DNA of 38,567 nucleotides from IMG/VR virus record IMGVR_UViG_2531839486_000019, positions 1 through 38,567 of that record. One strand, 5' to 3'. Positions 7,013-27,185 of this stretch are shown here, piece after piece. A program made the translations under genes and the position numbers. Within the stretch, counting starts at the first letter, position 1. Each line of letters opens with the position of its first letter. Source of the DNA: a virus (taxonomy: Duplodnaviria; Heunggongvirae; Uroviricota; Caudoviricetes). The notes under the pieces were generated by a model. The model ran no database searches. It saw only the letters and a program-made list of their open reading frames with translations, and was not told the DNA's origin.

Positions 7013-7020
7013 GTGACATG

Positions 7021-7317
7021 TCACGTTCCTTTTCTGAATGCTAGCCATTCGAAAAATGATGACATTCCACCGCAGACAATAGCAAAGATGATCCCACCAA
7101 AGAAGAGAAGGCCAGCCTGCCACCACTCCCACCGCCATACATCCACAGCGCCAACCATACCAACAATCGCTCCAACAAATGGAATATAGCTCACGATGAA
7201 AGCAATGGGGGCTGCAATTATCCAGTGCAATCCCCACCATGATTCAAGCCCAGCCATAATTGCTGCCAACTGAAAAAGACCAACGACGATATAAACAATG
7301 AATCCTATAGCTTGCAT
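7021..7317 (-). CDS. small membrane protein (3 predicted TM helices), function unknown
   Basis: ATG at 7315-7317 with RBS AGGTGA; the N-terminal extension of the track ORF is unsupported; hydrophobic, Trp-rich. Confidence 0.5.
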   Translation of the reverse strand: MQAIGFIVYIVVGLFQLAAIMAGLESWWGLHWIIAAPIAFIVSYIPFVGAIVGMVGAVDVWRWEWWQAGLLFFGGIIFAIVCGGMSSFFEWLAFRKGT

Positions 7318-7513
7318 GTAGTCACCTAATTTACCCAGTAAAAATAAGAGGCCTCCCCTCAATAAGGCTTGCAACAAGAACGACTCCCTGCACAACAAAG
7401 ATGAACCAGCAAATAGCTTGAGTCTGAGGGTTAAGAAAATATTTGTAGCGGTCAATAAATAACAATCCACCAGAAATTATCACACTCAAAATAATTAAAA
7501 ACACAACACTTCC

Positions 7514-9988
7514 TTATTGCGGAGTGACATCCTGTGGTCGCCACCAGTATGTCTGGTTAAACTCTTTCTTCGAACGTTGCTCCATTTTACGCAAATAACC
7601 TGGTGAAAAATACTCCTGCATCTGGTTAAAGATCATGTGATCGAGAGCCGCCTTTAAGTACCAGAGATTCGCACCTGGCATCAGACCTTTCCCCAGCTTA
7701 ACCAGATCACCACCAGTCTGCTCATTCTTCCCTTCCACAGCATTTAACGGTATGCCCTGAGCAATCTTCACTACGTCATCAACCAGACCAGCTACCGGGC
7801 CAAGCATCGACGCCAGCGCGCCGCTTCCGTACCTAGTGTGATCTGACAATAAAAAGTCACCGTAAAGGCCAAGACCACCACCTTTCAGTAGAGCACCAAG
7901 CCAAAATTTAGCAGCATCTTCTCCTGTCATCTCGCGAGGATTACGACCAGACGCAAGGTCGTTAAGTTGCTGCGACAAAGCGCCAAGAATGGTCGTACTG
8001 GCAATAAACGTCGCAATATATGCCGCACGCCCACCAGCCGACGGCATACCCATAGCGCGTGACCAGTGACGCATAACCACCGAGATAGGGAACGATTTAA
8101 ACAGGAAAACACTTCTCGTTAATTCACCTTTCCATGTTCCACGCTGAATACCAGAACCGGTTATCAGTTGCTCACGTGCACCCGGTGTAATAACAGCCAT
8201 ATCAACTTCTTCAGTTACGGCACCGAGCAGTTTACGCATTGCCTCAAATTTCACGCGTTCAGGCTCACCAAGATGTTTAACTGCTGAATCATGGATACGC
8301 ATAATGCTTTCCGGTGTCAGCATCGTATTATTGCCGTTCCCCCAGTCCTCCTGTTGCGCCAGCTTCCATACGCTCCAGTCTGTGTCAGTAATCCCTTTGC
8401 TTTTCAGGATACGAAAATCAGAATCATCGAGGCTACGAAGGTCTGGTGTCCGTGACACTACTTCTCCCAGGCTTCCCATCATGGTTACGCCATAGGCGCG
8501 CTTGTGCGCATCTGACCATGCTGTAAGCCCACTGGCACGCATTACCGCCGTTGCAGCCCAACGAGACACAGACGGCCCCATATTATCCATCGCCCAGCGG
8601 TTAACGCTGCCAAGTAGAGATTCCATCGCCAGACCAGCGCGGCGCGCCCGCGCAAGTTCTGTACGGTTCGTTGGGTCCATAGCTTCAAGCTGGTTGCGGA
8701 ATAACTGGTTCATTGGAAGGTTGGTAACCTTCGCAGACAGATACATGGTTCCAAGATCAGAGAACGATGACAGCAACGCGGATCCGAGTCTGCTGGCAAC
8801 CAGCCAGTTGCGGATATTGTCAGACCATCGCGCGATGTGCGGATTCGCTACAGGCTGTGTCTTTCCGGAAATAAAGTTGTACAGATTCTCTGTGTTGTTC
8901 GCCAGCCGCTCGACTTTACCGGTTTTACTCGGGTTAGCTGTTGCCGTTTCTGCCTTCACCTGATCAAGAAGAGAGCGGAAAACATGATCGGGGTTTGGGC
9001 CATATGTTTCCACCAGTGCAATATCTTTACTGATACCTTCAAGGTGACCGACCATGATTTCCCATAGAGAGCGATCGCCATAAAGTTGCTGATATTGCAG
9101 ATAGGAATCTGCATCTTTGAAATGTATCTGTCGTGATGCATTACCACGGTTAGCACGTGCGCCGGAAATTCGCATTCCGGTATCAGTAAGCTTATTCAGC
9201 CCACCAGTAGCGATCGTGTTATAAGCCTCTCCAAGAAATGCAGACAACTCGGCATCGTTCATCAGTTGTCCATCGGCTCGGGGATAATATTTGCGATCCA
9301 GCTTACCTATAACATCGCTAACCCATTTATCTTTTGATACCGCCCCAACCTTTTCCATAGAATGATGTTGAGGGATCCCCCAGTTTTCGAGATAGCCAAT
9401 GTCCCCACCAGCATCATTAAACCGGCGGCGCAGCAGCTCTGTAACTTCTCTCCACGCCTTAGCACCTTTTCTTGCTTTAGCATTGCCAGTATTTTGCCCC
9501 CGCATTTCATATACCAGGTCACGTACGCCCGCTTCATCTTCAAACAGACCAAAAAAGCGAGGATCAACTGCTTCGAATGCCTCCTGCAATTGACTCAATG
9601 CATAATCACGGGTGGCTTTTGTTCTGGATTCAACAGAGAGGAAATTCGATTTACCGTCTGCATTAAAAGCAATAGTACGGTTAAGAGCGCCAAGTTTCCC
9701 ATCAGCCCCTTGATAGCTATTGATAAATTTATCCAATCTCTGACGTGCGGCTATAGTGAGGGCCACACGACGTTTCTTTAATGCCGCTTCTCGCTGTAAT
9801 CCTTCAGATGCCAATTGTGCTGCACGATATAGCCGCTCTGATTCGGAAAGTTGTCTCCACGACATCGGGTCATCACGAGCAATGGAGCGCATATTTCGAT
9901 AAATGCGGTCTTCAATGTTCTGTATTTCTCGCGCCGTTAACGTGCGCTGCGCCGCCTGCTGGACCGCTTGTATACATTCCTGTCTCAT
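7514..9988 (-). CDS. internal virion (ejection/core) protein, T7 gp16-like by position and size
   Basis: 824-aa ORF at the end of the structural operon just before the tailspike; synteny with T7-like internal core proteins. Confidence 0.65.
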   Translation of the reverse strand: MRQECIQAVQQAAQRTLTAREIQNIEDRIYRNMRSIARDDPMSWRQLSESERLYRAAQLASEGLQREAALKKRRVALTIAARQRLDKFINSYQGADGKLGALNRTIAFNADGKSNFLSVESRTKATRDYALSQLQEAFEAVDPRFFGLFEDEAGVRDLVYEMRGQNTGNAKARKGAKAWREVTELLRRRFNDAGGDIGYLENWGIPQHHSMEKVGAVSKDKWVSDVIGKLDRKYYPRADGQLMNDAELSAFLGEAYNTIATGGLNKLTDTGMRISGARANRGNASRQIHFKDADSYLQYQQLYGDRSLWEIMVGHLEGISKDIALVETYGPNPDHVFRSLLDQVKAETATANPSKTGKVERLANNTENLYNFISGKTQPVANPHIARWSDNIRNWLVASRLGSALLSSFSDLGTMYLSAKVTNLPMNQLFRNQLEAMDPTNRTELARARRAGLAMESLLGSVNRWAMDNMGPSVSRWAATAVMRASGLTAWSDAHKRAYGVTMMGSLGEVVSRTPDLRSLDDSDFRILKSKGITDTDWSVWKLAQQEDWGNGNNTMLTPESIMRIHDSAVKHLGEPERVKFEAMRKLLGAVTEEVDMAVITPGAREQLITGSGIQRGTWKGELTRSVFLFKSFPISVVMRHWSRAMGMPSAGGRAAYIATFIASTTILGALSQQLNDLASGRNPREMTGEDAAKFWLGALLKGGGLGLYGDFLLSDHTRYGSGALASMLGPVAGLVDDVVKIAQGIPLNAVEGKNEQTGGDLVKLGKGLMPGANLWYLKAALDHMIFNQMQEYFSPGYLRKMEQRSKKEFNQTYWWRPQDVTPQ

Positions 9989-9993
9989 TTAAT

Positions 9994-11796
9994 TTAACCT
10001 CTCAAGAAACACGCCACAGCGACATCAAACAGGCTGGAATCCTGTATTGCCTGCTCACTTTCCCTGTTCGCTTCATCCAGTACTTCACGCGCGCTGCGCG
10101 ATTGTGGATTACCATCATCATCCAGCACGGTGATTATCATGTCAGGTGATTCAAGCAGCGAGTCTTCAGCTATGCGCAGATCAATATCTCCTGCCTGATC
10201 CGCCATCATTTTTTGTTCTGCCTGTTGCAATATTTTATCAGGCTCAAAAGGAGCTACTTCGTCTGGCGTCCTGACCTCTGCTGTTTTATAGAATGAAACA
10301 GCCTGAGCATTAAGTTCACTTTCAGCCTGCTGTCTCCGTGCCAGTTCTGCTCGAGCTTCAAAAAACTGACCGCCAGGCTCATGCGGTGCCAACGCGTTAC
10401 GGGAAAATTCCAGGCGTTCTTGTGCCTGCCGGATTCGTTGGTCAATATCGCGAAGTCTGACCTGTTTATCTGATCGAGCACGAGACAAAGATTTACCGCT
10501 ACCGGTTGGCTCTTCTGCAAGAATTTGTGCGCGCTGTTCAGTGAGATTTTCAATAATTCGTTGGCTATTAGCGATTTCAGACTGGTAAACCTGTCTATCG
10601 CCACGCGGCAAAAGCTGCGCGGCCTGTTCTTCAAGCAACCGATTTTCTATAGCGCGCGCCGTTACTCCATCATCTACAGATGACAGAGCCTCATTAACTG
10701 CCTGAGACAGCAGACTCTTGCGCCCAGGAATTTCACTGAAAGATGCAGACTCAACAATGCTGGCAACGTCTACAGGTCTCCCCTGGCTAACATCAGACAT
10801 AGCTTTTCGCAGAGCCTGAATGTGAGAATTGCGCGAAAGCACGTTGATCGGCACGCCGGGCGCAATATCAATTTCAGCATGATGAGCGGCATTCGCCGCC
10901 AGTGCAGCATCAACATCAACTGGTGAAAAATTTGGTGCGCTTGTAGACTCGCCGCGAGAGTTAATAAATCTGCCGACACCACCAAACGCCACTCCAAGAA
11001 CAGCATCAATAGCAATTGCCTGTCGATCCAACACATCATACTGGTTAGCCATTTCGCTATAGCCACCATCACGAAGCGTTTTTGCAGTAAGCCCACGCTG
11101 TGCCATACCGAACGCAATATTTGTACCTGCGGCATAGGCAATATCTGGCGTTGCACGTACTGCTGTTGCTGCGGCGCGTCGCACTGAACTTTCACCCGTC
11201 CGCGGAAGCTGGGCCGCCACACCTTCCGCCAGCGCACCACCAGCACGTAACCCGAGGCTCATAGGGATCAGTGTTCCGGCACCAGCAGTAATACCCTGCA
11301 CTAATCCTGCTTCCTGCGCCGTCCTAAAATCAACACCCTGTGCTGTCAGCCGTTCAAACTCAGAAAAACCCTGTAGCGAAGTTACCGCCGCTGCACCTCC
11401 GACCGGACCACCGAGCGTTGTACCGACAACAGCCTGCCCGCCCATATCGAACAACCCATAAAGAACCTGCCCGGCGGTTCCAGTTGTCGCCGCATCAGGC
11501 GTCAGCCGCTTAACCTGCTGCTCTGCTAGTTTTCTCTGCTCGGCAATGTATGAAACTGAAGTGTCATTGAGCGAGGTGTTTTCGTTAACAAACTGAGCAA
11601 TCGGGGATACGATTTTATCCATCCCTGCCCATAGCAACTGATCTGGCTTTGCCACCAGCCCGGAGTACAAACCAGACAATGCCGCTCCTACAGCATTGTC
11701 GAAAAAACCAACATCGCTGTTAAAGCCCGCTGGATTTGATGCTGCTTCGTCAAGCTGCTGATTCTGGTTTACTGGATTAAGGCCAAAGTAACTCAT
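9994..11796 (-). CDS. internal virion protein
   Basis: 600-aa ORF; its start overlaps the upstream gene stop (ATGA); Ala/Gly-rich segments. Confidence 0.6.
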   Translation of the reverse strand: MSYFGLNPVNQNQQLDEAASNPAGFNSDVGFFDNAVGAALSGLYSGLVAKPDQLLWAGMDKIVSPIAQFVNENTSLNDTSVSYIAEQRKLAEQQVKRLTPDAATTGTAGQVLYGLFDMGGQAVVGTTLGGPVGGAAAVTSLQGFSEFERLTAQGVDFRTAQEAGLVQGITAGAGTLIPMSLGLRAGGALAEGVAAQLPRTGESSVRRAAATAVRATPDIAYAAGTNIAFGMAQRGLTAKTLRDGGYSEMANQYDVLDRQAIAIDAVLGVAFGGVGRFINSRGESTSAPNFSPVDVDAALAANAAHHAEIDIAPGVPINVLSRNSHIQALRKAMSDVSQGRPVDVASIVESASFSEIPGRKSLLSQAVNEALSSVDDGVTARAIENRLLEEQAAQLLPRGDRQVYQSEIANSQRIIENLTEQRAQILAEEPTGSGKSLSRARSDKQVRLRDIDQRIRQAQERLEFSRNALAPHEPGGQFFEARAELARRQQAESELNAQAVSFYKTAEVRTPDEVAPFEPDKILQQAEQKMMADQAGDIDLRIAEDSLLESPDMIITVLDDDGNPQSRSAREVLDEANRESEQAIQDSSLFDVAVACFLRG

Positions 11797-14306
11797 TGCG
11801 GAATATCTCCGGAGAATCTCTGACGCTTCTGAGTCAGATCAAGAACAACGGGAGAACCATCATCTTTCAGCAGATAACCAGTACCAAGTTTCACCAGGTA
11901 CTGACTATCGCCGTAACTTTGCAAACCATACTGACCAGGCGGTGTTTTTATCCCTGTGCCAACAACTTGTTCATTCCAAACCTGATTAACCTGCTTATCG
12001 AATTGCTCTGCAGACATTCCCCACGGCAAAAGAACATTCCCCATTCCGTTATAGTCATGCACGCCACCTGTAGCTACGTTAACAGCCTGTTTCCAGATAT
12101 CATTGTCAATTTCGCCTGATACCACGCCTTTTTTCGCCATCACACCAGCGTAATAGTCCTTTGCGATCTCGTATGCCATTGATGCCCCCTGAGCATCACC
12201 AGCAAATGCATCCTTCACCATGTCAGAAAACTCAAGGCGAAGATCAGCATCTTTAGGCATCGGAATACCTTTCGCGTCATCAGTACCCTTACGAGCCGCC
12301 GCACCAGCAAGAATTGTCTGCGCTGCGGTTTCAGGAGACACGGAAACATCAGGATTAAACCAGTTTTTTTCTGCCAAAATACCACCAGGCTTATCCATCA
12401 GTATCCCGGCAACGGCAGCAGATGGAGCGTTGGCACTGATCTGCTGTAGTGCTGACATATACACCTGCCCACCACCAGTGCTCTGCCTGATGGTATCGAG
12501 ATATGCTGCCTGTTGGGAAACTGGAGCATCACGAAAGAAAACACCGATCTGATTGGCCTCGTCTTTGGAAAAGAACGTCAGTGGAGTGCCATATGACTTA
12601 GCAAGATCACTGACCTGAGCGGCACGCAAGGCAACGCTCTGTCCAAAGTTATCCTTATTGCTCATGTCGATAGGCTTTGCCTGTCCGGAGGCAAGAGAGA
12701 ACTGCACAGGATCCGACTGCCGCTGCTTTATCACCTGATTTGCAGCCGAAACAACGTTGTCATAAAGAGCTGCGCGTGCCGCATACCCCTCCCCTGTCTC
12801 ACCAGTATCCGGGCGTAATTGCTCAACATATGCTGTAATGCTGCTTGTCGGCATGTTGCGGAAAGAGCCTATATACTGTCCGGCGATTTGCGTATTTCTG
12901 AACTCGGTATATCGCAGGTTTCCTTCTCTTACTCCATAAGCTGCAATAAAATCAGCCTCACCAGGTGGGTTAGGAAATTCAACGCCACGCATATACGCAG
13001 CTGTCGCATCGCGAACCTGGCTGTCAATCATCGTTTTATATTCAGCCTGCTGCTGCCGACGCAGTTGATCCGCCTGTCGCATAAAACTTGCCTGCGCCTC
13101 AGGAGATGCCGCATCGAATGCTGCATTACCGGTATAGCGTTTGGTGTTGGTTGGAATTGTTGATAAACCAAGTGCTGCACTGACACCAGCAGTTAACTGC
13201 TGATCACTGTATGGCTGGCTACCGTTCTCATGATGGATAATGGCTGCACAAAGCGCCTTCAGGGTATCAGGATTAGATGCATCGAGAGGCTCATCAGCAG
13301 AAACGCCAAGTTGTTCGCACACTGCTTTGATATACGACATAGTGTCATTTTTATCAGTAGGCGGTGCCCAGCGATTAATTATCTCGCTGACGGTATCAAT
13401 ACCCTGCATCTGATACGACATCAGGTTTCGCCCTAATGCACGAATCCCGTGTTCAGGTGTTTCGAATTTAGCAAATCGACCATCATCACCGGTCTGGCCT
13501 ACCCACGGATTAGTTTTGCTGTATTCGAGATTTCCTGGGTTATTGTTGCGTATGCCACGGGCACGCTCGGAAGAGTCACTATCTGCTACAGCACGGCGAG
13601 CTCCAGCAGCAGTATCACTTAACTCGCCATTACTTTGGATGAATGCGGTCGCATTGTTTGCCGACCACTGGGACAATGCGGCATCAGCAACCTTCTCTTT
13701 AAACTCGACTTTCTTGGCCTGGATTTGCTCGTCGCTCCAGCCATGCGCAATGCCGTAATCCTCAATTTGCTGGAAAGTTTGCTTATTAGCCAATACGTAT
13801 GCGGCGTTGTCGCCATACAATGCTGCGGCATTTTTACCATTGTTCAGCAGCGTAGCCTGAAACTGGCCTTCTTCGTAGGCGTTTATTTGCCCTATCTCGT
13901 GCCGCCCGGCCTGCGTAGTGAACTGAATGCGCTGCTGCTGCGCCTGCTGCATAAAAGTATTACGAGCCTGTTCATCCGGCAGCGACATAGCCAGTTGTTC
14001 GACCTGAGCATCAAACTGCTGCGTATACTCATGGCCTTTTCCAATAGCATTTTTCCCTTTCAGGTTAAGCAACCCTGTTTCAGGGTTATTCAGCAGATCG
14101 CTGCTTATCTGACTGAGGTTAAGAGATGCCTCCTGAGCCAGAGCGATATTGGCACGCTGTTTTGCCTGACCAAAAACATCAATAGTCTCTGCCCCTGCCC
14201 GAACAAAAGCATCACCAATACCTGGCTGAGAAAACGTCTGCAAGCCTGCTGACTGAACTCCACGGCTCTCAACCTGACGTCCGGATACTGTTGGTACGAC
14301 TGGCAT
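11793..14306 (-). CDS. internal virion protein, gp15-like, with a possible muralytic domain
   Basis: start moved to ATG 14304-14306 (MPVVPT...) with RBS GGAGG 7 nt upstream, overlapping the upstream stop (TAATG); motif GIRNNNPGNL. Confidence 0.65.
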   Translation of the reverse strand: MPVVPTVSGRQVESRGVQSAGLQTFSQPGIGDAFVRAGAETIDVFGQAKQRANIALAQEASLNLSQISSDLLNNPETGLLNLKGKNAIGKGHEYTQQFDAQVEQLAMSLPDEQARNTFMQQAQQQRIQFTTQAGRHEIGQINAYEEGQFQATLLNNGKNAAALYGDNAAYVLANKQTFQQIEDYGIAHGWSDEQIQAKKVEFKEKVADAALSQWSANNATAFIQSNGELSDTAAGARRAVADSDSSERARGIRNNNPGNLEYSKTNPWVGQTGDDGRFAKFETPEHGIRALGRNLMSYQMQGIDTVSEIINRWAPPTDKNDTMSYIKAVCEQLGVSADEPLDASNPDTLKALCAAIIHHENGSQPYSDQQLTAGVSAALGLSTIPTNTKRYTGNAAFDAASPEAQASFMRQADQLRRQQQAEYKTMIDSQVRDATAAYMRGVEFPNPPGEADFIAAYGVREGNLRYTEFRNTQIAGQYIGSFRNMPTSSITAYVEQLRPDTGETGEGYAARAALYDNVVSAANQVIKQRQSDPVQFSLASGQAKPIDMSNKDNFGQSVALRAAQVSDLAKSYGTPLTFFSKDEANQIGVFFRDAPVSQQAAYLDTIRQSTGGGQVYMSALQQISANAPSAAVAGILMDKPGGILAEKNWFNPDVSVSPETAAQTILAGAAARKGTDDAKGIPMPKDADLRLEFSDMVKDAFAGDAQGASMAYEIAKDYYAGVMAKKGVVSGEIDNDIWKQAVNVATGGVHDYNGMGNVLLPWGMSAEQFDKQVNQVWNEQVVGTGIKTPPGQYGLQSYGDSQYLVKLGTGYLLKDDGSPVVLDLTQKRQRFSGDIPQ

Positions 14307-19100: not shown

Positions 19101-19110
19101 CGATATCACC

Positions 19111-19548
19111 TTAACCAGTTACTTTTGAGCGGATCGGATACGGCGTATTGGCATCAACATCAAGACTGATACCCGCAGTGAATTCGCCAGCCGTTAGTGG
19201 GCCAGTTGCGACGGAGTAGTTAACGCGCAGATATCGCTGAACACCGGCAGGCACCTTTGCAGAAACAACTCGTTTACCTGCTGTCAGGGCGGTCTTTGCC
19301 AGTGCGCCACTATCATAAATAGTGGTCCATGAGCTGTTATTCTCACTCGTCTGCAACTGGATGTTTACAGTTGCATCACCGCTTGCCGCGGCGGCTGTGT
19401 TAACCAGCGCCCAAAACTCAAGCGGGTAACCCACGCCGATATCACGACGTTTTCCGTCAATTGGACCGAGATCGATTACGTCAGTAGAAGCCGCGGTATT
19501 CGTAACCGCCTGAGCTTCGGAGAACATCAACAGTTTGTCGGTGATCAT
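19111..19548 (-). CDS. hypothetical structural protein (capsid decoration candidate)
   Basis: ATG 19546-19548 with RBS GGAGA; lies directly after the major capsid gene. Confidence 0.5.
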   Translation of the reverse strand: MITDKLLMFSEAQAVTNTAASTDVIDLGPIDGKRRDIGVGYPLEFWALVNTAAAASGDATVNIQLQTSENNSSWTTIYDSGALAKTALTAGKRVVSAKVPAGVQRYLRVNYSVATGPLTAGEFTAGISLDVDANTPYPIRSKVTG

Positions 19549-19599
19549 CTTCTTTCTCCATTAGTGGGTCTGTTACGACCCACAGGTTAATAACAGGCG

Positions 19600-20592: not shown

Positions 20593-20600
20593 TTCCTCTC

Positions 20601-21302
20601 TTATTTGCCATAGAGCACTTCGGCCGCACTACGCTGGCCTTCATTACCACCGGTGACCATGCCATCTTCAGACATCGCCTTTCCGATTTTCACGAACGTT
20701 TTGACCAGATCAGGGTGATTACCCAGCCCGGTGGTGTTCAGATATTCTTTGAGTTCAGGTGTCCCGAACTGGTCAAGCGCACGCTGTGCGGCGCTAAGGT
20801 TAGAAATCAACTTGTCGCCACCGATTTCTTTGTCAGCTTTTACATCAGCAGCCCACTGCTCGGTTGTTTTCTGCCAGGCTTCTGCCTGGCGCTGCTGCAC
20901 ACCTGCCAGAATCTTCGGATAAGCATCAACCAGCTTTTGCGCTTGCTCGTTGGTCAGGTTAAGTTCTCGCGCCACCGGCTCGAATTCCTTCAACGCTTCT
21001 GTATCCAGCTCTACGCCTTCGGCAGCCTGAAACTCGTACTTCTCAGGCGCACCCTCTGGTTTATCGCCGTCCTTTTTTTCATCCTGTTTATCGTTTTCAG
21101 GCTTTTTGTCATCAGCAGGTTTATCGCCATCAGCAACAGGTTGTGGCTTATCACCTTCCGGTTGTGATGGATCACCAACTGGAGCAGGGTTATCACCTGC
21201 AGGCGCTGACGGTTCTGACGCAGCCGGAGCTGCTCCACCATCGACTGGTTGCTCATTGCAAAGACGGCGATACAGCAAACGCTCAAATAAATTCATGATC
21301 AC
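20601..21302 (-). CDS. scaffolding protein
   Basis: acidic, Pro/Asp/Lys-rich N-terminal region then helical C-terminus; between portal and capsid genes. Confidence 0.7.
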   Translation of the reverse strand: MIMNLFERLLYRRLCNEQPVDGGAAPAASEPSAPAGDNPAPVGDPSQPEGDKPQPVADGDKPADDKKPENDKQDEKKDGDKPEGAPEKYEFQAAEGVELDTEALKEFEPVARELNLTNEQAQKLVDAYPKILAGVQQRQAEAWQKTTEQWAADVKADKEIGGDKLISNLSAAQRALDQFGTPELKEYLNTTGLGNHPDLVKTFVKIGKAMSEDGMVTGGNEGQRSAAEVLYGK

Positions 21303-21595
21303 TCCTGTTCACTGGCCTCTTTGGCCATCTTCAAATACTGTTCAGGGCAATGCGCCATAACGCGCTGAAACAGTTCCAGCGCCAGATTGCGTTGCCCCTC
21401 ATTAAATGCCATTGCCATAGCGTCCATCGGTGATATAGCGGAAAACACACGGCCTTTCTCCAGCACCGACCAGACAACGCGACGCCCCTGTTCACTGCTC
21501 ATGACAAAGCGAATGTCATCAATTTCACGCTGCGCCATGTCACGTTGCTTACGGGCGTTTTCTTCTTTCAGTTGATCGTCTTCGTAATCTGTCAT
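21299..21595 (-). CDS. hypothetical 98-aa protein between portal and scaffold genes
   Basis: ATG overlaps portal stop and its own stop overlaps the scaffold start. Confidence 0.5.
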   Translation of the reverse strand: MTDYEDDQLKEENARKQRDMAQREIDDIRFVMSSEQGRRVVWSVLEKGRVFSAISPMDAMAMAFNEGQRNLALELFQRVMAHCPEQYLKMAKEASEQE

Positions 21596-23271
21596 TGTGA
21601 TTGCCCACCCTGACCACTAACTGCATTCGCCATAGCTGACAAAACACTCGGATCCGAAGTTTTAGCTTCGCTTAGCGTCTTGGCACCCTGTGCCGCCGCC
21701 ATCCCCATCGCCATCATTTGTTGCTGCTGTTGTTGCTGTGCCCGTTGCTGGCGAGCCTGCTCAACCTGTTCCTGCGGAACAATGACGGTTGGAGACACTC
21801 CGGACATATCAGCGAATGCATCGATCGCCTGATCAACGTTGAGTTTGTCGAGAGCTTCTGGTTTCGCTTGCGCAAGTTGACCAATGAAGTTGACCGTAGA
21901 CGCCAGACTGGACAGGCCGATAGACTTCTGCGCCTGAGCCATGACGGAAATGTATTCGACCTTCAGGGGCATACCTTCCATCGCGTCAGGCGGTGGCGGC
22001 AGCATGTTTTTACGCACCATCATCGAGAAAGCGCGGTCAATGAGAGGATTAAGACATTCGTCGTTCAGACGCTCCAGAACCGGACCCAACATCAGAAGTT
22101 TTTCTTCTTTCATTTCGATCACCGCTTCAACAGGCATCGAGCGGGTATTGATGTTCTGCAACATCATGAACAGATCGACAAAGTAGGCGCTGTTAATGAT
22201 TTGACGAGTGTCCTGAATGTCTGCTACCAGATCTGCTGTACTGGGGTTAACCAGATAAGCAGGCCTGAAACCATCCTGACCAGTAATCTGATCGATATAC
22301 GTGATGTCGCCAGGAAGAAGGGAGGCGCGCTGATTCTTGAGGGAAGTCGGAGCAACCATCGGCGGATTGGTGGCTTTATCAATCAACTGCGACTTGCGCT
22401 TCTGGAGAAGCTGCAATGCCTTAACAGGTCCAAGCGCCAGCATACCCGGGCATGATGATCCATAAACATCTTCGCCGTTAACTTCCCAGCGCGGAGCCAT
22501 AATTGGAAACTCATCGAATCCGGACTCACGCAACAACTTGTCGTTATCGCCACCAACCTCGTAATAAACCGATTTGAATGGCTTGTTCTTGCTATCCAGC
22601 TTCGATGTATCGCGGTCAATGTTCGGGTAAACCGAATGCATCACTTCAATCCACTTCTCGTAGGTGCCGCTTTCCCACATGCTTTTTACGGATTCGCTGA
22701 CGTTATTTAGTCCGAATTCCTGAACAAGCTGACGAACAGTCATAGAGAACTTGCGAAAACAGGTGTCCACACTGCCACGAGGTGAGTTAGCCAGGTAGTA
22801 ACTTCCTATCGGGAATGGCATTGTACGAATGATGTCCTCGTCATCCTCCAGCACCGCCATTGCACCGGTGCTGTATGTGCCGAGGCTTCCGTATAACTGC
22901 GGCAGCGACTGATAGAGATTCGACTTATTGAACATATCGTTCATGCGGTTCTGCACTGCCTCAAGCCACAACTTAACAGGGCCATAATCCATCATTTCAG
23001 GATCTGGCGTAGCCAGGCGAAACCACGGACGCGCGGGGCTTGTGATGCCTGACATCATGCCGCTGGCGAGAGTGCGCGCCGCCATAGTCCCGGTCGAATC
23101 AATAATGCGTGTATTGCGTCGATCGTTACGGTTGACCTCAGAAGTCAGAAAGCGGGAACCACGCGGGTTGATGTAATCACTCAACTCGCGCCAGTGCGGC
23201 TCGAACGACTGACGCTCGCTTTCAAGTTGTGCGAACTGTTTGTTCAATCGCTCTTTAGTTGTTTCCGCCAT
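21592..23271 (-). CDS. portal (head-to-tail connector) protein, podovirus type
   Basis: 559 aa; ATG 23269-23271 with RBS GGAG 8 nt upstream; poly-Gln/Ala C-terminal tail; sits after the terminase genes. Confidence 0.85.
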   Translation of the reverse strand: MAETTKERLNKQFAQLESERQSFEPHWRELSDYINPRGSRFLTSEVNRNDRRNTRIIDSTGTMAARTLASGMMSGITSPARPWFRLATPDPEMMDYGPVKLWLEAVQNRMNDMFNKSNLYQSLPQLYGSLGTYSTGAMAVLEDDEDIIRTMPFPIGSYYLANSPRGSVDTCFRKFSMTVRQLVQEFGLNNVSESVKSMWESGTYEKWIEVMHSVYPNIDRDTSKLDSKNKPFKSVYYEVGGDNDKLLRESGFDEFPIMAPRWEVNGEDVYGSSCPGMLALGPVKALQLLQKRKSQLIDKATNPPMVAPTSLKNQRASLLPGDITYIDQITGQDGFRPAYLVNPSTADLVADIQDTRQIINSAYFVDLFMMLQNINTRSMPVEAVIEMKEEKLLMLGPVLERLNDECLNPLIDRAFSMMVRKNMLPPPPDAMEGMPLKVEYISVMAQAQKSIGLSSLASTVNFIGQLAQAKPEALDKLNVDQAIDAFADMSGVSPTVIVPQEQVEQARQQRAQQQQQQQMMAMGMAAAQGAKTLSEAKTSDPSVLSAMANAVSGQGGQSQ

Positions 23272-23285
23272 TTCAATGACTCCGG

Positions 23286-23492
23286 TTACTGACCAAGCAG
23301 CGTTTTACCGCTGGTATTAGCGGTTGATGTGTCGCCCTGAGAACCGGTAAGCAGCGTAGAACTACGACCAGCAGCAGCGCGACGGCGACGAGTTTCTTCG
23401 TCGCGGGCATCAACAACGGCGGCATCCTGCTCCTGTGGTGCTGCCTGAACTTCTGGTGTTGCAGGCACTGACGGTGAGCTACCCATGCACAT
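23286..23492 (-). CDS. hypothetical small acidic low-complexity protein upstream of portal
   Basis: ATG 23490-23492 with GGAG 8 nt upstream; low-complexity sequence, so weakly supported. Confidence 0.3.
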   Translation of the reverse strand: MCMGSSPSVPATPEVQAAPQEQDAAVVDARDEETRRRRAAAGRSSTLLTGSQGDTSTANTSGKTLLGQ

Positions 23493-23560
23493 ATCAATGA
23501 CTCCGTACGCAATTAAATTATTACCAATTTAACCACATATGATTTATTTATCGTAGATAG

Positions 23561-23597
23561 TTGACATTTAACGCACAAATTATTACCTTTCAGGTAA
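23561..23597 (+). promoter_or_regulatory. candidate plus-strand promoter with operator-like dyad driving the tRNA operon
   Basis: perfect -35 TTGACA (23561-23566); dyad TTACC-TTTCA-GGTAA (23583-23597) over the -10 region; exact -10 hexamer ambiguous. Confidence 0.4.
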
Positions 23598-23919
23598 GCA
23601 AAGGGTTCATTCCGGTTATTAACCTGACTGGCTTGTCGTTAAATTGAACAGGTGGAGTGAGCTTTTATTTTGAGCAGTACGGCGTATGGCACATGCGCCG
23701 ATAGCGGTCTGGATACGTTTAAGGGGCACCCTCCCTTGCTCGGGCAAACGAACCAGGTAGCCGGAATGTGCAAGTCGAGCGGTTTTATTCCGCGCACGGG
23801 GATTCACCATCCCGGCGATTCGGTGTGACACCTCGGAAGAGACGAGGGTACAACGATGAGAGCATTTATGGAGCCGCGACAAAGTGTGGCGCCTTAACAG
23901 GCTAAGTGCTCTCAGCGTT

Positions 23920-23996
23920 GTGGCATTAGCTCAGTTGGACAGAGCAACCGCCTTCTAAGCGGTTGGTCGCAGGTTCGAATCCTGCATGCCACGCCA
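23920..23996 (+). tRNA. tRNA-Arg (anticodon UCU), phage-encoded
   Basis: 77-nt cloverleaf: acceptor GTGGCAT/ATGCCAC, D-stem GCTC/GAGC, anticodon stem ACCGC/GCGGT with loop CTTCTAA, T-arm GCAGG-TTCGAAT-CCTGC, discriminator G, encoded CCA. Confidence 0.85.
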
Positions 23997-24039
23997 GAAT
24001 CACGCCTAAGGACCGTGATGCCAGAAGTTCCAGGTGCTT

Positions 24040-24081
24040 GGCGGTGATGGTTTCCCTTGAAGGACTATCACCGCCCTTTTT
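24040..24081 (+). terminator. rho-independent terminator downstream of the tRNA
   Basis: stem ggcggtgat (24040-24048) / atcaccgcc (24067-24075) followed by CTTTTT. Confidence 0.5.
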
Positions 24082-24159
24082 ACAGCAGGACGCCATTGCG
24101 ATGACTTCATGCTGTAAACCCGTACAGCCACGGAAGGCATAACTCATTGCTTCCAGTTC

Positions 24160-24183
24160 GCCCGGTTCGCCGGGCATTTTTTT
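24160..24183 (+). terminator. second terminator-like hairpin ending 12 nt before the 123-aa gene start (attenuator candidate)
   Basis: stem gcccgg / ccgggc with ttcg loop, then A + TTTTTTT (24177-24183); RBS AAGGTGAGA follows directly. Confidence 0.45.
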
Positions 24184-24194
24184 AAGGTGAGATT

Positions 24195-24566
24195 ATGAAC
24201 GACCAGCAAATCGAAAAAGAAATCGTTGAGAAAGGAAAAACGGCACCGCGCGTTACGCCAGACCATATCGAAGGCATTATTGCTCAGGAGGCATATTTCA
24301 CAGCAGAAGATGGTGCCTTTGGCAAAGCCATAAAAGCGAAACATACTGGCGGAGAGGTAAACTACCAGCCGCACGAATCACTTTCTCTGCTGACGTTCTG
24401 CGTCCTGGTACTGCGCAACGGCTTCACCGTCACCGGAGAGAGTGCCTGTGCAAGTCCGGAAAATTTTGATGCAGAAATTGGTCGGAAGATTGCCCGGCAG
24501 AATGCTGTAAACAAAATCTGGATGCTCGAAGGTTACTTGCTGAAGCAGAAGCTAAGCGAGCAATAA
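24195..24566 (+). CDS. hypothetical 123-aa protein (cargo gene co-oriented with the tRNA)
   Basis: ATG 24195 with RBS AAGGTGAG 5 nt upstream; TAA at 24564-24566; terminator downstream. Confidence 0.6.
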   Translation: MNDQQIEKEIVEKGKTAPRVTPDHIEGIIAQEAYFTAEDGAFGKAIKAKHTGGEVNYQPHESLSLLTFCVLVLRNGFTVTGESACASPENFDAEIGRKIARQNAVNKIWMLEGYLLKQKLSEQ

Positions 24567-24586
24567 CACCGTGACATGTCACAAAC

Positions 24587-24614
24587 AGCCAGCCGATGAG
24601 CTGGCTTTGTTTTA
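24587..24614 (+). terminator. rho-independent terminator of the plus-strand cargo gene
   Basis: stem agccagc / gctggct, loop cgatga, then TTGTTTTA. Confidence 0.6.
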
Positions 24615-24656
24615 TCCTCATCAGAGGATATCAACGACATTATCCCCACCAGCGGA

Positions 24657-26132
24657 TTAAGCATACGGGTCATAATCTGTGATGGCCTTGCCTTGCTGGT
24701 TCTGCTGCCCAGGAATTCGCAGACGCTTCGACACAGGGAAAGCAAACGTCAGCAGTAGCGCATCGCCTTTACCCGGCGAACGCCCAAGTCGCTCTTTGAT
24801 ATCTTCCTTCGGTTCGATAACGATTTTACCGTCCACTCGAACTTTATACTCTGCCGCCGACAGGTCGTCCGCTGTTTCCTGGTCATCCAGCATCCCGCCG
24901 AGCCTCAGCCATGTCTTACATGAGTTGAACATCTCCCCACGCTTGTTAAGCATCTGCGGGTCAGTGGACGCACCGCCGAACGGAACAAGTTGCCATGTAC
25001 GTCCCCAGCCATCACCGATTGACTTCAGACCAGTTCCGTAACCGAAGTCGATGAACACTGCGTCAGCCTGGTACTGGTCTTCAAAGTCAGCGATACGCTT
25101 CGCCATTATCAGATCGTCAGTGGTCTTGTTGCCAGTCCATAGCACCTTACTATGCAACCCCTGCCGCAGGTATATCACCGCGTCATCAACGCCTGAATAT
25201 GCCGGGTCAACACCGATTATCACCGGAGCATGTGCCACCTGCGCAGCGGTTACCACCCGTTTCATTGCCTCATCAGTAAGACCGGTAGGGATAAACTGCA
25301 ATTCAGATGCATCAGGGAATATGCCGCGCACACGGATTTTAACGAAGTCGCTGTCTTCCCCGTAGTCATCAACCCATTTCTGCAACTGCTGTTTGTTAGT
25401 ACCTTCCACCGTCCGGCTGTCTATCTGCGCACACTTCCAGCGGTGCTTGTATTTGCGGAAGCATTCACGGAATCGCCCGGTATTACGCGTCGGGTTTCCG
25501 AACGCCACCCAAATAATCTCAGTGTCTTCGTCCGTAAGCGCACCCTCAGCAACTTCCCACACCAGATCCGCAATGTTCGACGCTTCATCAAACACCACGA
25601 TGATGCGTTTGCGCTCGTTGTGTAGTCCCGCGAACGCCTCAGTGTTGTGCTCAGACCAGGGGATTGCGTCAGCTCGCCACCGCTTGTCGTGCCCAGGATC
25701 ATTGCTGTACATCGCGGTAGCGGTACAGGTAAACCAGTCTTTCGTGATAGCAAGGTTCGACCACTTGATAATTTCCGGCCAGGTCTTCGTTCGTAGCTGG
25801 TTGTCGGTGTTGGCGGTCACCACGACCTTACAATCCTCGCAAGTGGACATGCCCCAGTTGATCAGCATTGAGATGAATGCGGATTTACCAATACCGTGAC
25901 CAGAAGCGCGTGCCAGCATAAGCGGCTGATAACGCGTCTCTGGATTCTGCAGGTGATCACGTATCTCTCGGAACGCATCGGCCTGCCACTGACGTGGGCC
26001 GGTAGCATGTGCCAGTTCAGTCCCCTCTTCCCCCCACGGGAACGCATAGAGGGCATAGCCAAGCGGATCGTGAGTGAACCCTGCAATATCCTCGATTAAC
26101 TGCTCTTCAGGAGATAACGCTGTATCTGTCAC
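24657..26132 (-). CDS. terminase large subunit
   Basis: 491 aa with N-terminal ATPase (Walker A-like GHGIGKS) and C-terminal nuclease-like region; GTG start overlaps small-subunit stop (GTGA). Confidence 0.9.
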   Translation of the reverse strand: MTDTALSPEEQLIEDIAGFTHDPLGYALYAFPWGEEGTELAHATGPRQWQADAFREIRDHLQNPETRYQPLMLARASGHGIGKSAFISMLINWGMSTCEDCKVVVTANTDNQLRTKTWPEIIKWSNLAITKDWFTCTATAMYSNDPGHDKRWRADAIPWSEHNTEAFAGLHNERKRIIVVFDEASNIADLVWEVAEGALTDEDTEIIWVAFGNPTRNTGRFRECFRKYKHRWKCAQIDSRTVEGTNKQQLQKWVDDYGEDSDFVKIRVRGIFPDASELQFIPTGLTDEAMKRVVTAAQVAHAPVIIGVDPAYSGVDDAVIYLRQGLHSKVLWTGNKTTDDLIMAKRIADFEDQYQADAVFIDFGYGTGLKSIGDGWGRTWQLVPFGGASTDPQMLNKRGEMFNSCKTWLRLGGMLDDQETADDLSAAEYKVRVDGKIVIEPKEDIKERLGRSPGKGDALLLTFAFPVSKRLRIPGQQNQQGKAITDYDPYA

Positions 26133-26725
26133 TGATTACCATCCTGACGTTCTTTGAGTCGCTTCCTGGCTGCTGCTATGCGATCAGCAATTGTCACATT
26201 CACATTAACATCCAGACGTTCTTTGAACGCGTTGACATCAACATGCTTACCAATCAGCTCAAGGTTCTTCACCTTGTCCGGCCATTTGATTTTTTTGAGG
26301 ATTGTCTCTATCGAATCCTCGTTCATGTTCATGATGGTCGATGACAGATCAAAGCCGCTAAGCGTAGTGCGCCAGATTTTCGGCCACTCGCGGATTGGTT
26401 TAAGGCTCCCATCGTCGTTGAGGATGTCGATCACGTCCATCTGGTCGATCTCCACCAGGCGCATGAGAACGTAATCAGCACTGACGCGCATTCGTTTGTT
26501 GCGTTCCTCCATCAGCTCGGCAATCCGTTTCTGAATGCGTTCATCTCGCATCATGACACTGGCTTTAACTGCCGCTGTATTTGGGGAGAATCCTGCGTTA
26601 ATCGCTGCCTGAGTCTGGTTTTCAGGCGTTTTGATGTATGACTGGCAATAAGCCTCCTGCATTGCTGTTAGTGGCTTAAATTGCGTTGATTTGCGTTTAT
26701 AGGTTTTAGTTTCAGCAGGCATCAT
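26129..26725 (-). CDS. terminase small subunit
   Basis: start moved to ATG 26723-26725 (MMPAETK...); the upstream 26 track codons translate a tandem DNA repeat and are unlikely coding. Confidence 0.7.
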   Translation of the reverse strand: MMPAETKTYKRKSTQFKPLTAMQEAYCQSYIKTPENQTQAAINAGFSPNTAAVKASVMMRDERIQKRIAELMEERNKRMRVSADYVLMRLVEIDQMDVIDILNDDGSLKPIREWPKIWRTTLSGFDLSSTIMNMNEDSIETILKKIKWPDKVKNLELIGKHVDVNAFKERLDVNVNVTIADRIAAARKRLKERQDGNQ

Positions 26726-26732
26726 AACCACC

Positions 26733-26764
26733 GTGGTAATAGTTACCGTTGTGGTAATAGTACC
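26733..26764. repeat. tandem direct repeat GTGGTAATAG(T)TACC x2 immediately upstream of the terminase small gene
   Basis: copies at 26733-26747 and 26751-26764; each is itself a GGTAA...TTACC dyad. Confidence 0.6.
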
Positions 26765-26768
26765 ATGC

Positions 26769-26794
26769 AAAATAAAGCCGCCATAGTTGGCGGC
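26769..26794 (-). terminator. hairpin plus T-run (minus strand) just upstream of the terminase operon
   Basis: stem gccgcca / tggcggc with tagt loop; on the minus strand it is followed by TTTATTTT. Confidence 0.45.
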
Positions 26795-26843
26795 AGTATT
26801 CAAAACACATCAAATTCATCATGCATAATCTACTCGTGACATG

Positions 26844-27185
26844 TCACACTATTAATTTCGTTTCATGCCAGCCTTTAGTCACCCAGCATTGCGAGTCACC
26901 ATTACACGGGCATGAATTAACTGGAACTCTCTCGCCGCACTTACCGCAACGTTTTCTGCTGATCGATTTTATACGCCCGCGCACGCGTGCATCATCCTGG
27001 CGGATCAGTAACGCTATATACTCACCAAATTCGTAAGGCGCACGCCCGGGGCGACGCGTGGCACAGTTACGCTCCAGCATTTCAATTTCCTGAGCATCAA
27101 GCACAATCTCCAGCTTACGCACACCAGATGCAGCTTGTCTGGCTCTCTGAGCGGCTTTGCGCTCTGCTGCTGATTTAGCCATCAA
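26844..27185 (-). CDS. Cys-rich zinc-finger protein; candidate late-gene regulator (position of lambda Q)
   Basis: 113 aa; basic N-terminus and C-terminal cluster CGKCGERVPVNSCPCNGDSQC; last early gene before the terminases. Confidence 0.5.
   Translation of the reverse strand: MMAKSAAERKAAQRARQAASGVRKLEIVLDAQEIEMLERNCATRRPGRAPYEFGEYIALLIRQDDARVRGRIKSISRKRCGKCGERVPVNSCPCNGDSQCWVTKGWHETKLIV

What the first reader, a model, noticed from the sequence alone, without database searches (positions are those of the whole stretch)
7013..26847. Perfect 12-bp palindrome GTGACATGTCAC at three late-operon junctions
Identical copies lie at 7013-7024, 24571-24582 and 26836-26847. Each is intergenic or overlaps a stop codon, and each is within 0-40 bp of a terminator-like hairpin. 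In the minus (late) direction they sit ahead of the tailspike/lysis block, the portal-to-tail block and the terminase block respectively. Three exact copies of a 12-mer at gene-block boundaries in 38 kb are unlikely by chance, so this may be a binding site for a late-gene regulator such as the Cys-rich protein at 26844-27185.
Basis: seen in the sequence. Interest (0 to 1): 0.6.

Follow-up and report, generated by a model that had tools for sequence, protein, structure and literature searches.

The report
Phage regulator's conserved 12-bp binding site
The three identical 12-base palindromes are real, and are most likely the docking sites of a small, uncharacterised DNA-binding protein encoded right beside one of them; the same protein-and-site pair turns up in many unrelated temperate phages, and the site has the same half-sites as the bacterial chromosome-organising site matS.

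Summary
Observation confirmed. GTGACATGTCAC occurs exactly three times (7013, 24571, 26836), against 0.01 expected. The window is an epsilon15/phiV10-like (Uetakevirus) prophage. The same 12-mer sits at the same three places in phages of E. coli, Salmonella, Enterobacter and Klebsiella, and stays invariant while its flanks diverge.

The key result is comparative. The Cys-rich ORF at 26844-27185 belongs to a small family (epsilon15 gp49, N15 gp46, PHROG 536). Almost every genome or locus examined that carries this family also carries several copies of GTGAC-N2-GTCAC or a lineage-specific variant. This holds in a myovirus, telomere phages, P2-like phages, and Vibrio, Aeromonas, Serratia and Pseudomonas elements. 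One copy often overlaps the gene's own TGA stop. Two genomes without the gene gave one relaxed-pattern match against 0.27 expected and no exact GTGAC-N2-GTCAC site.

An AlphaFold model (pLDDT 94) has a ribbon-helix-helix fold followed by a zinc knuckle, and MatP is among the structural matches. The half-sites equal those of matS, but the site is 12 bp rather than 13.

So "binding site of that protein" is strongly supported, by inference only. "Late-gene activator" is not supported. In this genus each site lies at the end of a transcription unit, 0-41 bp before an intrinsic terminator. I favour a repressor or roadblock-insulator role. Antitermination and a MatP-like architectural role remain open.

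The parts
26836..26847 (.). Site A: GTGACATGTCAC. It overlaps the TGA stop of the family gene. On the - strand it reads G-TGA-CATGTCAC.
   Evidence: Syntenic copies are present in epsilon15, SPN1S, Tyrion and BUCT711; phiV10 has a 1-mismatch copy.
24571..24582 (.). Site B: GTGACATGTCAC. It lies between the terminase large subunit stop and the stop of the convergent gene.
   Evidence: The site is invariant in 5 genomes (12/12 columns, against 9/30 and 3/30 in the flanks). In Tyrion it stays with the convergent gene rather than with terL, and it is absent in BUCT711.
7013..7024 (.). Site C: GTGACATGTCAC. It overlaps the TGA stop of the last ORF of the structural operon.
   Evidence: Invariant columns are 12/12 in the site against 2/30 and 0/30 in the flanks, across 6 genomes.
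2570..2581 (.). Possible fourth site, GTGACCCGTCAC: same arms, different centre, inside a lysis-region ORF. Status uncertain.
   Evidence: This 120-bp region has no nucleotide match in 5 relatives. The chance expectation for GTGAC-N2-GTCAC is about 0.04 per genome (my estimate: window length divided by 4^10).
26844..27185 (-). Gene for the candidate binder, 112-113 aa. It has a basic N-terminal helix, a ribbon-helix-helix domain, a long helix and a C-terminal Cys knuckle (C80, C83, C92/C94, C100). It is a homolog of epsilon15 gp49 and N15 gp46, in PHROG 536.
26777..26794 (-). Intrinsic terminator 41 bp downstream of site A in the late direction, ahead of the small terminase gene.
   Evidence: The counterpart in epsilon15 is annotated as a terminator.
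24587..24606 (+). Terminator hairpin 4 bp from site B. The good T-run is in the + direction, that of the convergent gene; the - direction has only a weak T-run.
   Evidence: phiV10 annotates a terminator at this position.
6995..7012 (-). Intrinsic terminator directly abutting site C in the late direction.
   Evidence: phiV10 and epsilon15 annotate terminators here.
24195..24566 (+). Convergent accessory gene (Pfam PF13876, N4 gp49 / Sf6 gene 66 family). Its 3' end abuts site B.
   Evidence: E 8.6e-35.
6609..6989 (+). Convergent ORF of unknown function. Its 3' end faces terminator C and site C.
26743..26757 (.). Context only: TTACC-N5-GGTAA, a different motif (epsilon15 'repressor' site type), between terminator A and the small terminase gene.

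Best explanation
GTGACATGTCAC is the recognition site (operator) of the small ribbon-helix-helix plus zinc-knuckle protein encoded at 26844-27185, a member of the epsilon15 gp49 / N15 gp46 family (PHROG 536).

Inferred binding mode: a dimer places its two-stranded beta-ribbon in the major groove at the dyad, over the variable central dinucleotide. The conserved basic N-terminal helices (R9, R14) read the invariant GTGAC arms. I recall MatP sitting on matS as a single dimer in a similar way, but I could not retrieve that structure paper. matS has the same arms and a centre one base longer.

Inferred function in this prophage: the protein is made from the last gene of the early-right operon. It then occupies three sites that mark the ends of transcription units, each 0-41 bp upstream of an intrinsic terminator. 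I think it most likely acts as ribbon-helix-helix proteins usually do, as a repressor. Here that would mean a bidirectional roadblock or insulator with three effects:
- It limits read-through from its own operon into the terminase operon. A site on its own stop codon would also give negative feedback.
- It limits read-through between the late operons.
- It limits read-through into and out of the convergent accessory genes.

Shown: the sites, their conservation, their co-occurrence with the gene, the fold, and the neighbouring terminators. Inferred: binding itself, the binding mode, and the direction of the regulatory effect.
For: 1. Significance and conservation. There are 3 exact copies against 0.01 expected. 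The same 12-mer sits at the same three places in epsilon15, SPN1S and Tyrion. phiV10 has two exact copies plus a 1-mismatch copy at site A. BUCT711 keeps sites A and C. The site is invariant while the flanks diverge: for site C, 12/12 invariant columns against 2/30 and 0/30. It is also essentially invariant in 80 close IMG/VR loci.

2. Co-occurrence with the gene in unrelated phages.
- ZF40 myovirus: 3 exact copies, one 3 bp after the gene's stop.
- N15 and phiKO2: the variant GTGACTGGTCAC, 3 copies at syntenic places, one overlapping the gene's stop.
- Vibrio K233 and PE002B: GTGAC(A/G)CGTCAC and GTGACAGGTCAC.
- Aeromonas phages: GTGACCGGACAC, 3 or more copies.
- Yersinia P2-like phage: one exact copy plus one 1-mismatch copy 33 bp away.
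- Pseudomonas-type loci: GTGAC-SG-GTAAC, several per 20 kb in most loci, often including the gene's stop. Serratia-type loci carry pairs of GTGACGCGTCAC.
- Totals: 31 observed against 1.5 expected in 13 genomes, and 57 against 0.8 in 20 loci. Genomes without the gene (Ab31, lambda) gave 1 against 0.27.

4. Placement. Terminators adjoin all three sites. In the Aeromonas phage all three sites lie 13-16 bp upstream of start codons, including that of the family gene itself, which is the usual layout for autorepression. As I recall it, LacI bound at an operator over the 3' end of lacI truncates its own transcript (Abo et al. 2000, from memory); that would be a precedent for a roadblock on a regulator's own gene.
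Against: - No binding experiment exists, and I found no paper mentioning any variant of the motif.
- Terminator adjacency is specific to the Uetakevirus genus. It does not hold in ZF40, N15, K233 or the Aeromonas phages.
- The distance from site to terminator varies from 0 to 41 bp, and the order is reversed at site B in the late direction, so there is no fixed geometry.
- Some sites lie inside essential genes: repA in N15 and phiKO2, structural genes in BUCT711, and an ORF I take to be terL in the Pseudomonas-type loci. That is awkward for a simple insulator.
- The residues on the DNA-facing side of the beta-strand differ (K-E-V against T-T-R) between phages that use the same AT-centred site, so the recognition code is not explained.
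- Individual family members hit Pfam ribbon-helix-helix models only weakly: 2 of 57 hit RHH_5 and 1 hit RHH_1.
Confidence: 0.5

Rival explanations
1. Late-gene switch by antitermination, which is. The protein binds the DNA site just upstream of each terminator, transfers to or modifies the passing RNA polymerase, and lets it read through. Early transcription would then extend into the terminase, structural and lysis operons. This is functionally like lambda Q.
For: - The gene occupies the 'Q position': it is the last gene of the early-right operon, directly before a terminator and the packaging genes. Uetakevirus records annotate no Q homolog.
- Sites A and C precede terminators in the late direction.
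- The C-terminal helix plus Cys knuckle gives weak sequence matches to the RNA-polymerase-binding proteins TraR and YbiI (PDB hmmsearch E 0.025-0.04; hhalign probability 73.6%).
- The first half of site A doubles as a -35-like hexamer of a predicted promoter pointing at terminator A.
Against: - At site B the order in the late direction is terminator first, then site.
- N15, phiKO2 and ZF40 carry the family and also a Q-like protein.
- In the window and epsilon15 the terminase and portal operons have their own upstream TTACC-N5-GGTAA sites, so they need not depend on read-through; epsilon15 also has one upstream of the tail fibre gene.
- From general knowledge, ribbon-helix-helix proteins are nearly always repressors.
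Confidence: 0.2
2. A MatP-like architectural system. The protein binds its roughly three dispersed matS-like sites to bridge, loop or mark the phage genome. It might also manipulate host SMC complexes (MukBEF, or Wadjet-type defence) on phage or phage-plasmid DNA. It would not be controlling particular promoters or terminators.
For: - The half-sites are identical to matS, GTGAC[AG]N[TC]GTCAC (PMC3603311).
- The number of sites per genome is fairly constant, mostly 2-5 counting near-copies. Their positions turn over: BUCT711 lost site B and gained two sites inside structural genes.
- Many family members sit on stand-alone 38-46 kb contigs, which look like phage-plasmids or telomere phages.
- Dispersed palindromic partition sites are already annotated in phiKO2.
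Against: - The spacing is 12 bp, not 13.
- No MatP N-terminal four-helix bundle or C-terminal coiled coil is present.
- The profile comparison with MatP is not significant (probability 0.9%).
- The family also occurs in Pseudomonas and Shewanella elements. From memory, Pseudomonas lacks MatP and MukBEF.
- Within lineages the positions are strongly conserved at gene boundaries, which suggests local functions.
Confidence: 0.12
3. A host protein, such as MatP, binds the palindromes rather than the phage protein. The link to the phage gene would then be coincidental or indirect.
For: The arms equal those of matS. The enterobacterial, Vibrio and Aeromonas hosts encode MatP (from memory).
Against: - The motif tracks presence of the phage gene and changes its centre or one arm by lineage. 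This includes Pseudomonas-type elements, whose hosts lack MatP as far as I recall.
- The sites are 12 bp. No 13-bp matS is present in the window or its relatives.
- One site is physically fused to the phage gene's stop codon in several lineages.
Confidence: 0.03
4. The 12-mer is a recombination or mosaic-junction signal, or an RNA-level element such as part of the terminators or a 3'-end processing site. It would not be a protein operator on DNA.
For: Homology among relatives breaks at about 6987-7013, at site C. All three sites border variable accessory regions and terminators.
Against: - 12 bp is too short for homologous exchange, and no recombinase is linked to the sites.
- As RNA the palindrome can form only a 4-bp stem, and it has no complementarity to the neighbouring hairpins (read directly from the sequence).
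- In other lineages the sites are not at terminators.
- These ideas do not explain the co-variation with a ribbon-helix-helix protein.
Confidence: 0.05

Closest known systems
Ribbon-helix-helix repressors and their palindromic operators (Arc and Mnt of P22, CopG, MetJ, PutA, antitoxins such as MazE, ParD and TacA)
   Same: The strand-helix-helix fold is predicted with high confidence and is the top structural match. The target is a short two-fold symmetric DNA site. The protein is small and phage-encoded. Autoregulatory placement is seen in some lineages.
   Different: It carries an extra basic N-terminal helix, a long helix and a Cys knuckle. Pfam gives no reliable ribbon-helix-helix match. 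The sites lie at 3' ends of genes and before terminators, or inside genes, rather than over promoters. There are about three dispersed single sites per genome instead of tandem operators.
MatP / matS, the organiser of the Ter macrodomain in E. coli
   Different: The site is 12 bp, not 13. The four-helix bundle (PF06303) and the coiled-coil tail are absent. Sequence similarity is not significant. The system is phage-borne. The family also occurs in Pseudomonas and Shewanella elements.
Lambda Q-type late antiterminators
   Same: The gene position is the same: end of the early operon, just before a terminator and the late genes. Both recognise a site on DNA, and both contain cysteines.
   Different: There is no homology to Q families. 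The sites are not embedded in a late promoter with a pause site. The family coexists with Q-like proteins in N15, phiKO2 and ZF40.
TraR / DksA C4 zinc-finger proteins that bind the RNA polymerase secondary channel
   Same: The C-terminal half (long helix, CxxC...C knuckle, short helix) aligns weakly with TraR and YbiI. As I recall, TraR-like genes are common in phage early regions.
   Different: The fourth Cys is displaced. There is no Pfam PF01258 match. A fold search with the C-terminal model gave no TraR or DksA hit. The helix that would enter the channel is here part of the ribbon-helix-helix core.

Membership tests
PHROG 536 / N15 gp46 / epsilon15 gp49 family | Significant full-length profile match | tested here: met
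   phrog_536 E 8.3e-55 over residues 2-112. tblastn finds homologs in 154 phage records. The family spans 154 clusters at 50% identity.
Ribbon-helix-helix (CopG/Arc/MetJ) superfamily | Beta-strand, helix, helix fold | tested here: met
Ribbon-helix-helix (CopG/Arc/MetJ) superfamily | Sequence-profile match to a curated ribbon-helix-helix family | tested here: inconclusive
   Hits are weak only: RHH_5 in 2 of 57 members (best E 0.013), RepB-RCR_reg in 2 of 57, RHH_1 in 1 of 57. NCBIfam gives the YbiE-like 'LexA regulated protein' model at E 0.053.
Ribbon-helix-helix (CopG/Arc/MetJ) superfamily | Dimer that binds a symmetric or repeated DNA operator | not testable with these tools
   The evidence is indirect: the 12-bp palindrome co-occurs with the gene. 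Neither oligomeric state nor binding was measured.
MatP / matS | 13-bp site GTGAC[AG]N[TC]GTCAC | tested here: not met
   The sites are 12 bp with a 2-bp centre. No 13-bp matS occurs in the window or in Uetakevirus relatives. The consensus is taken from PMC3603311.
MatP / matS | MatP domain set: N-terminal four-helix bundle (PF06303), then ribbon-helix-helix plus coiled coil (PF17414) | tested here: not met
   There are no Pfam hits. The protein is 113 aa with a Cys knuckle in place of the coiled coil. hhalign against E. coli MatP gives probability 0.9%.
MatP / matS | Ribbon-helix-helix core that recognises GTGAC half-sites | tested here: inconclusive
TraR / DksA C4-type zinc finger | CxxC-x17-CxxC zinc finger after a long helix, detectable by profile | tested here: inconclusive
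   PDB hmmsearch hits TraR at E 0.025 and YbiI at E 0.04. hhalign gives probability 73.6%. Three of the four Cys align. There is no PF01258 hit.
TraR / DksA C4-type zinc finger | Fold match of the helix plus zinc module | tested here: not met
Lambda Q-like antiterminators | Homology to a Q family, and a binding element inside a late promoter with a promoter-proximal pause | tested here: not met
   There is no Q-family hit in Pfam or PHROGs. Only site A overlaps a weak predicted promoter; sites B and C do not. Pausing is not testable here.

The most novel reading that the evidence does not exclude
The protein and its sites form a phage-borne counterpart of MatP/matS. A ribbon-helix-helix protein would read GTGAC half-sites at a few dispersed positions in order to fold or mark the phage or phage-plasmid genome, or to control host SMC complexes on it. 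MatP/matS of enterobacteria and vibrios may share ancestry with this mobile module.
Probability: 0.12. Interest if true: 0.85.

Novelty: new variant of a known kind. Interest (0 to 1): 0.62.

Why it matters
If correct, this links an unannotated small protein family to a precise DNA motif and a defined set of target positions. The family is found in epsilon15/phiV10-type phages, including phiV10, which is used as an O157 reporter phage. It is also found in N15-type telomere phages, P2-like phages and many phage-plasmids.

That makes the regulatory logic at operon boundaries in these phages directly testable with three point-mutable sites and one small gene. It also offers a compact, orthogonal protein/operator pair with natural specificity variants: centre AT, TG, AC, AG or CG, and one altered arm.

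The match to the matS half-sites raises a concrete and testable question about how MatP-type recognition arose.

Tried and rejected
- **CRP/FNR-type, LexA or CI operator.** Rejected by eye for the host factors, from remembered consensus sequences. The epsilon15-type 'repressor' motif is a different sequence, TTACC-N5-GGTAA.
- **Genome terminus or pac signal.** The phiV10 record starts at site A. This is only because the depositors cut the record after the last gene.
- **HNH endonuclease next to terminase.** No support from Pfam or PHROGs.
- **Promoter -35 element.** This works only for site A, weakly (plus my reading).
- **Homology to MatP.** hhalign is not significant. A homolog search meant to build a MatP profile returned only near-identical E. 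coli sequences. The MatP-matS structure paper could not be retrieved.
- **TraR-like module.** There is a sequence hint, but a fold search on a separately modelled C-terminal half gave nothing. Foldseek against PDB with the full model also gave nothing.
- **Recognition code.** Comparing the centre dinucleotide with beta-strand residues gave no clear code.
- **Stop-codon use.** I tested whether the site's TGA systematically closes ORFs in the Pseudomonas-type loci (31 of 48). This is uninterpretable because GC-rich DNA has long open frames in every frame.


Full report
**1.
GTGACATGTCAC occurs exactly three times in the 38.6-kb window, at 7013, 24571 and 26836. Dinucleotide-preserving shuffles give an expectation of 0.01. 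There are no 1-mismatch copies. Of the two 2-mismatch copies, the one at 2570 (GTGACCCGTCAC) keeps both 5-bp arms.

- Copy 26836 overlaps the TGA stop of ORF 26844-27185(-).
- Copy 7013 overlaps the TGA stop of ORF 7021-7470(-).
- Copy 24571 is intergenic, between ORF 24195-24566(+) and the terminase large subunit gene.

Terminator-like hairpins with T-runs lie 41, 4 and 0 bp away.

**2. What the window is.**
The window is nearly a whole prophage of the epsilon15/phiV10 type (genus Uetakevirus). The late genes are on the minus strand.

The same 12-mer is at the same three syntenic places in several relatives.
- Salmonella phages epsilon15 and SPN1S and Enterobacter phage Tyrion carry all three copies.
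- Klebsiella phage BUCT711 keeps two of the three places.
- phiV10 has two exact copies plus a 1-mismatch copy that is split by the ends of the record.

I anchored 5-6 of these genomes on the site without gaps and counted invariant columns. The site itself scored 11/12, 12/12 and 12/12. The 30-bp flanks scored as low as 2/30 and 0/30. In 80 close IMG/VR relatives the motif is essentially invariant. This points to purifying selection on the 12 bases themselves.

**3. The site travels with a protein family.**
The Cys-rich ORF at 26844-27185 has no Pfam family. It matches PHROG 536 at E 8e-55 and has homologs in 154 phage records of very different kinds. The family is small, with 154 clusters at 50% identity.

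Almost every genome or locus I examined that carries a family member also carries multiple copies of GTGAC-N2-GTCAC or a lineage-specific variant.

| Lineage | Protein identity to window | Site variant and copies |
|---|---|---|
| Pectobacterium myovirus ZF40 | 67% | The identical 12-mer, 3 copies; one lies 3 bp after the gene's stop |
| Telomere phages N15 and phiKO2 | about 35% | GTGACTGGTCAC, 3 copies at syntenic places; one overlaps the gene's stop, one is inside repA at the same codon position |
| Vibrio phages K233 and PE002B | 31-35% | GTGAC(A/G)CGTCAC and GTGACAGGTCAC |
| Two Aeromonas phages | 29-32% | GTGACCGGACAC, 3 or more copies |
| Yersinia P2-like phage | 39% | One exact copy plus a 1-mismatch copy 33 bp away |
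| Serratia-type loci | not measured | Pairs of GTGACGCGTCAC 23 bp apart |
| Pseudomonas-type loci | about 29% | Asymmetric GTGAC-(G/C)G-GTAAC, several copies per 20 kb in most loci, often one on the gene's stop codon |

With a relaxed pattern I counted 31 sites against 1.5 expected in 13 family-positive genomes. I counted 57 against 0.8 expected in 20 Pseudomonas- and Serratia-type loci. Two genomes without the gene served as controls: lambda, and Pseudomonas phage Ab31, which is a structural relative. Together they gave 1 against 0.27 expected.

Three features are what a cognate protein/operator pair would show: co-occurrence, lineage-specific variants, and a site fused to the gene's own stop codon in several lineages. 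The family also occurs in Pseudomonas and Shewanella, so a host factor such as MatP cannot be the general binder.

**4. What the protein looks like.**
I aligned 57 diverse members. C80 and C83 are invariant. R9, R14, E55, L60, P88, G96 and C100 are nearly invariant.

The AlphaFold model (pLDDT 93.7) has these elements in order:
- a basic helix (residues 6-20);
- an extended segment (21-30);
- two helices (31-43 and 53-75);
- a Cys knuckle;
- a short helix (101-108).

That hit prompted a comparison with matS, whose consensus is GTGAC[AG]N[TC]GTCAC (quoted in PMC3603311). The phage site has the same 5-bp arms, but its centre is 2 bp instead of 3. Sequence-level homology to MatP is not detectable (hhalign probability 0.9%). 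The protein also lacks MatP's other domains. It is therefore not a MatP family member. It may still recognise DNA in a similar way.

The C-terminal half gives weak matches to TraR and YbiI (E 0.025-0.04; hhalign probability 73.6%). Neither a fold search on a separate C-terminal model nor Pfam confirmed this. I treat it as a lead only.

**5. Where the sites sit, and what that suggests.**
In Uetakevirus the sites lie at the ends of transcription units.
- Site A follows the family gene, which is the last gene of the early-right operon. It precedes a terminator, then a TTACC-N5-GGTAA site, then the small terminase gene.
- Site C follows the last gene of the structural operon and abuts a terminator that faces a convergent accessory gene.
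- Site B lies at the 3' end of another convergent accessory gene (PF13876), 4 bp before that gene's terminator. In Tyrion site B stays with that gene rather than with terL. In BUCT711 it is missing, and two extra sites lie inside structural genes.

The distances to the next late gene start are about 100 bp, about 1 kb and about 0.5 kb. That does not fit a conventional upstream activator.

The separate TTACC-N5-GGTAA motif is annotated as repressor sites in epsilon15. It occurs seven times in the window, including directly upstream of the terminase and portal operons. Those two late operons may therefore have their own repressor-controlled promoters.

Elsewhere the placement varies.
- In Aeromonas phage 85AhydR10PP all three sites lie 13-16 bp upstream of start codons, including that of the family gene itself.
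- In N15 and phiKO2 one site lies 12 bp upstream of the next gene's ATG, one is inside repA, and one is between the repA operon and the terminator ahead of the anti-repressor operon.
- Terminator adjacency is not general.

**6. The mechanism I commit to.**
The palindrome is the operator of the ribbon-helix-helix plus zinc-knuckle protein. I put this at about 0.85.

On the functional output I am less sure, and give the full explanation 0.5. Three points favour a repressive, roadblock-type action:
- the family prior, since ribbon-helix-helix proteins are almost always repressors;
- the autoregulatory placements, on the gene's own stop codon or just 5' of its own ribosome-binding site;
- the presence of sites within transcribed regions.

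In this prophage that role amounts to a bidirectional insulator. It would sharpen three operon boundaries and feed back on its own operon's read-through into the packaging genes.

The rivals, in order:
- a Q-like antitermination switch (0.2);
- a MatP-like architectural role (0.12);
- a recombination or RNA-level element (0.05);
- a host binder (0.03).

All functional statements are inferences. No binding or expression data exist, and none of the motif variants appears in the searchable literature.

**7.
The guess that the neighbouring Cys-rich protein binds the site is strongly supported by comparative evidence. The guess that these are late-gene activator sites is not supported.

**8. Novelty.**
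Ribbon-helix-helix regulators with palindromic operators are a known kind. Four things appear to be undescribed, which makes this a new variant of that kind:
- this domain architecture;
- the dispersed sites at gene ends;
- the conservation of the pair across many phage and phage-plasmid lineages;
- the matS-type half-sites.

Noticed in passing
window 23583, 26743, 30420, 30482, 32813, 33526, 33588: A second, unrelated motif, TTACC-N5-GGTAA, occurs seven times. It matches the sites annotated 'repressor / lysogeny' in the epsilon15 RefSeq record. Two copies lie just upstream of late operons (small terminase, and gp3/portal). This suggests direct repressor control of late operons, which would be unusual.
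   Followed up: partly
window 2570-2581: GTGACCCGTCAC has the same arms and a different centre, and lies inside a lysis-region ORF. The surrounding 120 bp have no nucleotide match in five relatives. It could be a fourth site or a chance match.
   Followed up: partly
window about 6987-7013: Nucleotide homology to different relatives breaks at site C and its terminator. Some phages match only to the left and others only to the right. This is a mosaic junction between the structural operon and the variable tailspike/accessory module.
   Followed up: partly
window 26818-26847 (- strand); L002 39612-39646: The first half of site A (GTGACA) is the -35-like hexamer of a predicted promoter pointing at terminator A. 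The window has GTGACA-N18-CATGAT. In epsilon15 I read GTGACA-N17-TAAATT by eye. If real, it would make only a very short terminated transcript.
   Followed up: partly
window 26847-27044 (- strand; C-terminal half of the protein): The long helix plus Cys knuckle gives weak sequence matches to the RNA-polymerase-binding proteins TraR and YbiI. A fold search did not confirm this.
   Followed up: yes
L005 (N15) 33237 and L115 (phiKO2) 13664: One copy of the N15-type variant lies inside the replication gene repA, exactly 623 bp from its start in both phages. Synonymous differences flank it, but there are none within the 12-mer.
   Followed up: partly
L092 (Vibrio phage PE002B) 5212, 19261, 20691, 26390, 29735, 36539, 39287: Clusters of an 8-bp-period repeat (GAAAGCACGAAAG...) recur at seven or more places in the genome, mostly between genes. 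They are unrelated to the palindrome.
   Followed up: no
L093 (Aeromonas phage 59.1) 28528, 28588, 28674: Three copies of another perfect 12-bp palindrome, AGGAATATTCCT, are spaced 60 and 86 bp apart. They are probably an operator set of a different regulator.
   Followed up: no
protein clusters of P0183, P0218, P0253, P0255: Many distant family members sit on stand-alone contigs of 38-46 kb in Serratia, Vibrio, Shewanella and Pseudomonas assemblies; one is labelled plasmid. This suggests the family is common in phage-plasmids.
   Followed up: partly
L001 (phiV10) 39101-39104 joined to 1-8: In the phiV10 record, site A is split by the record ends and carries one mismatch (GTGACATGTTAC).
   Followed up: yes
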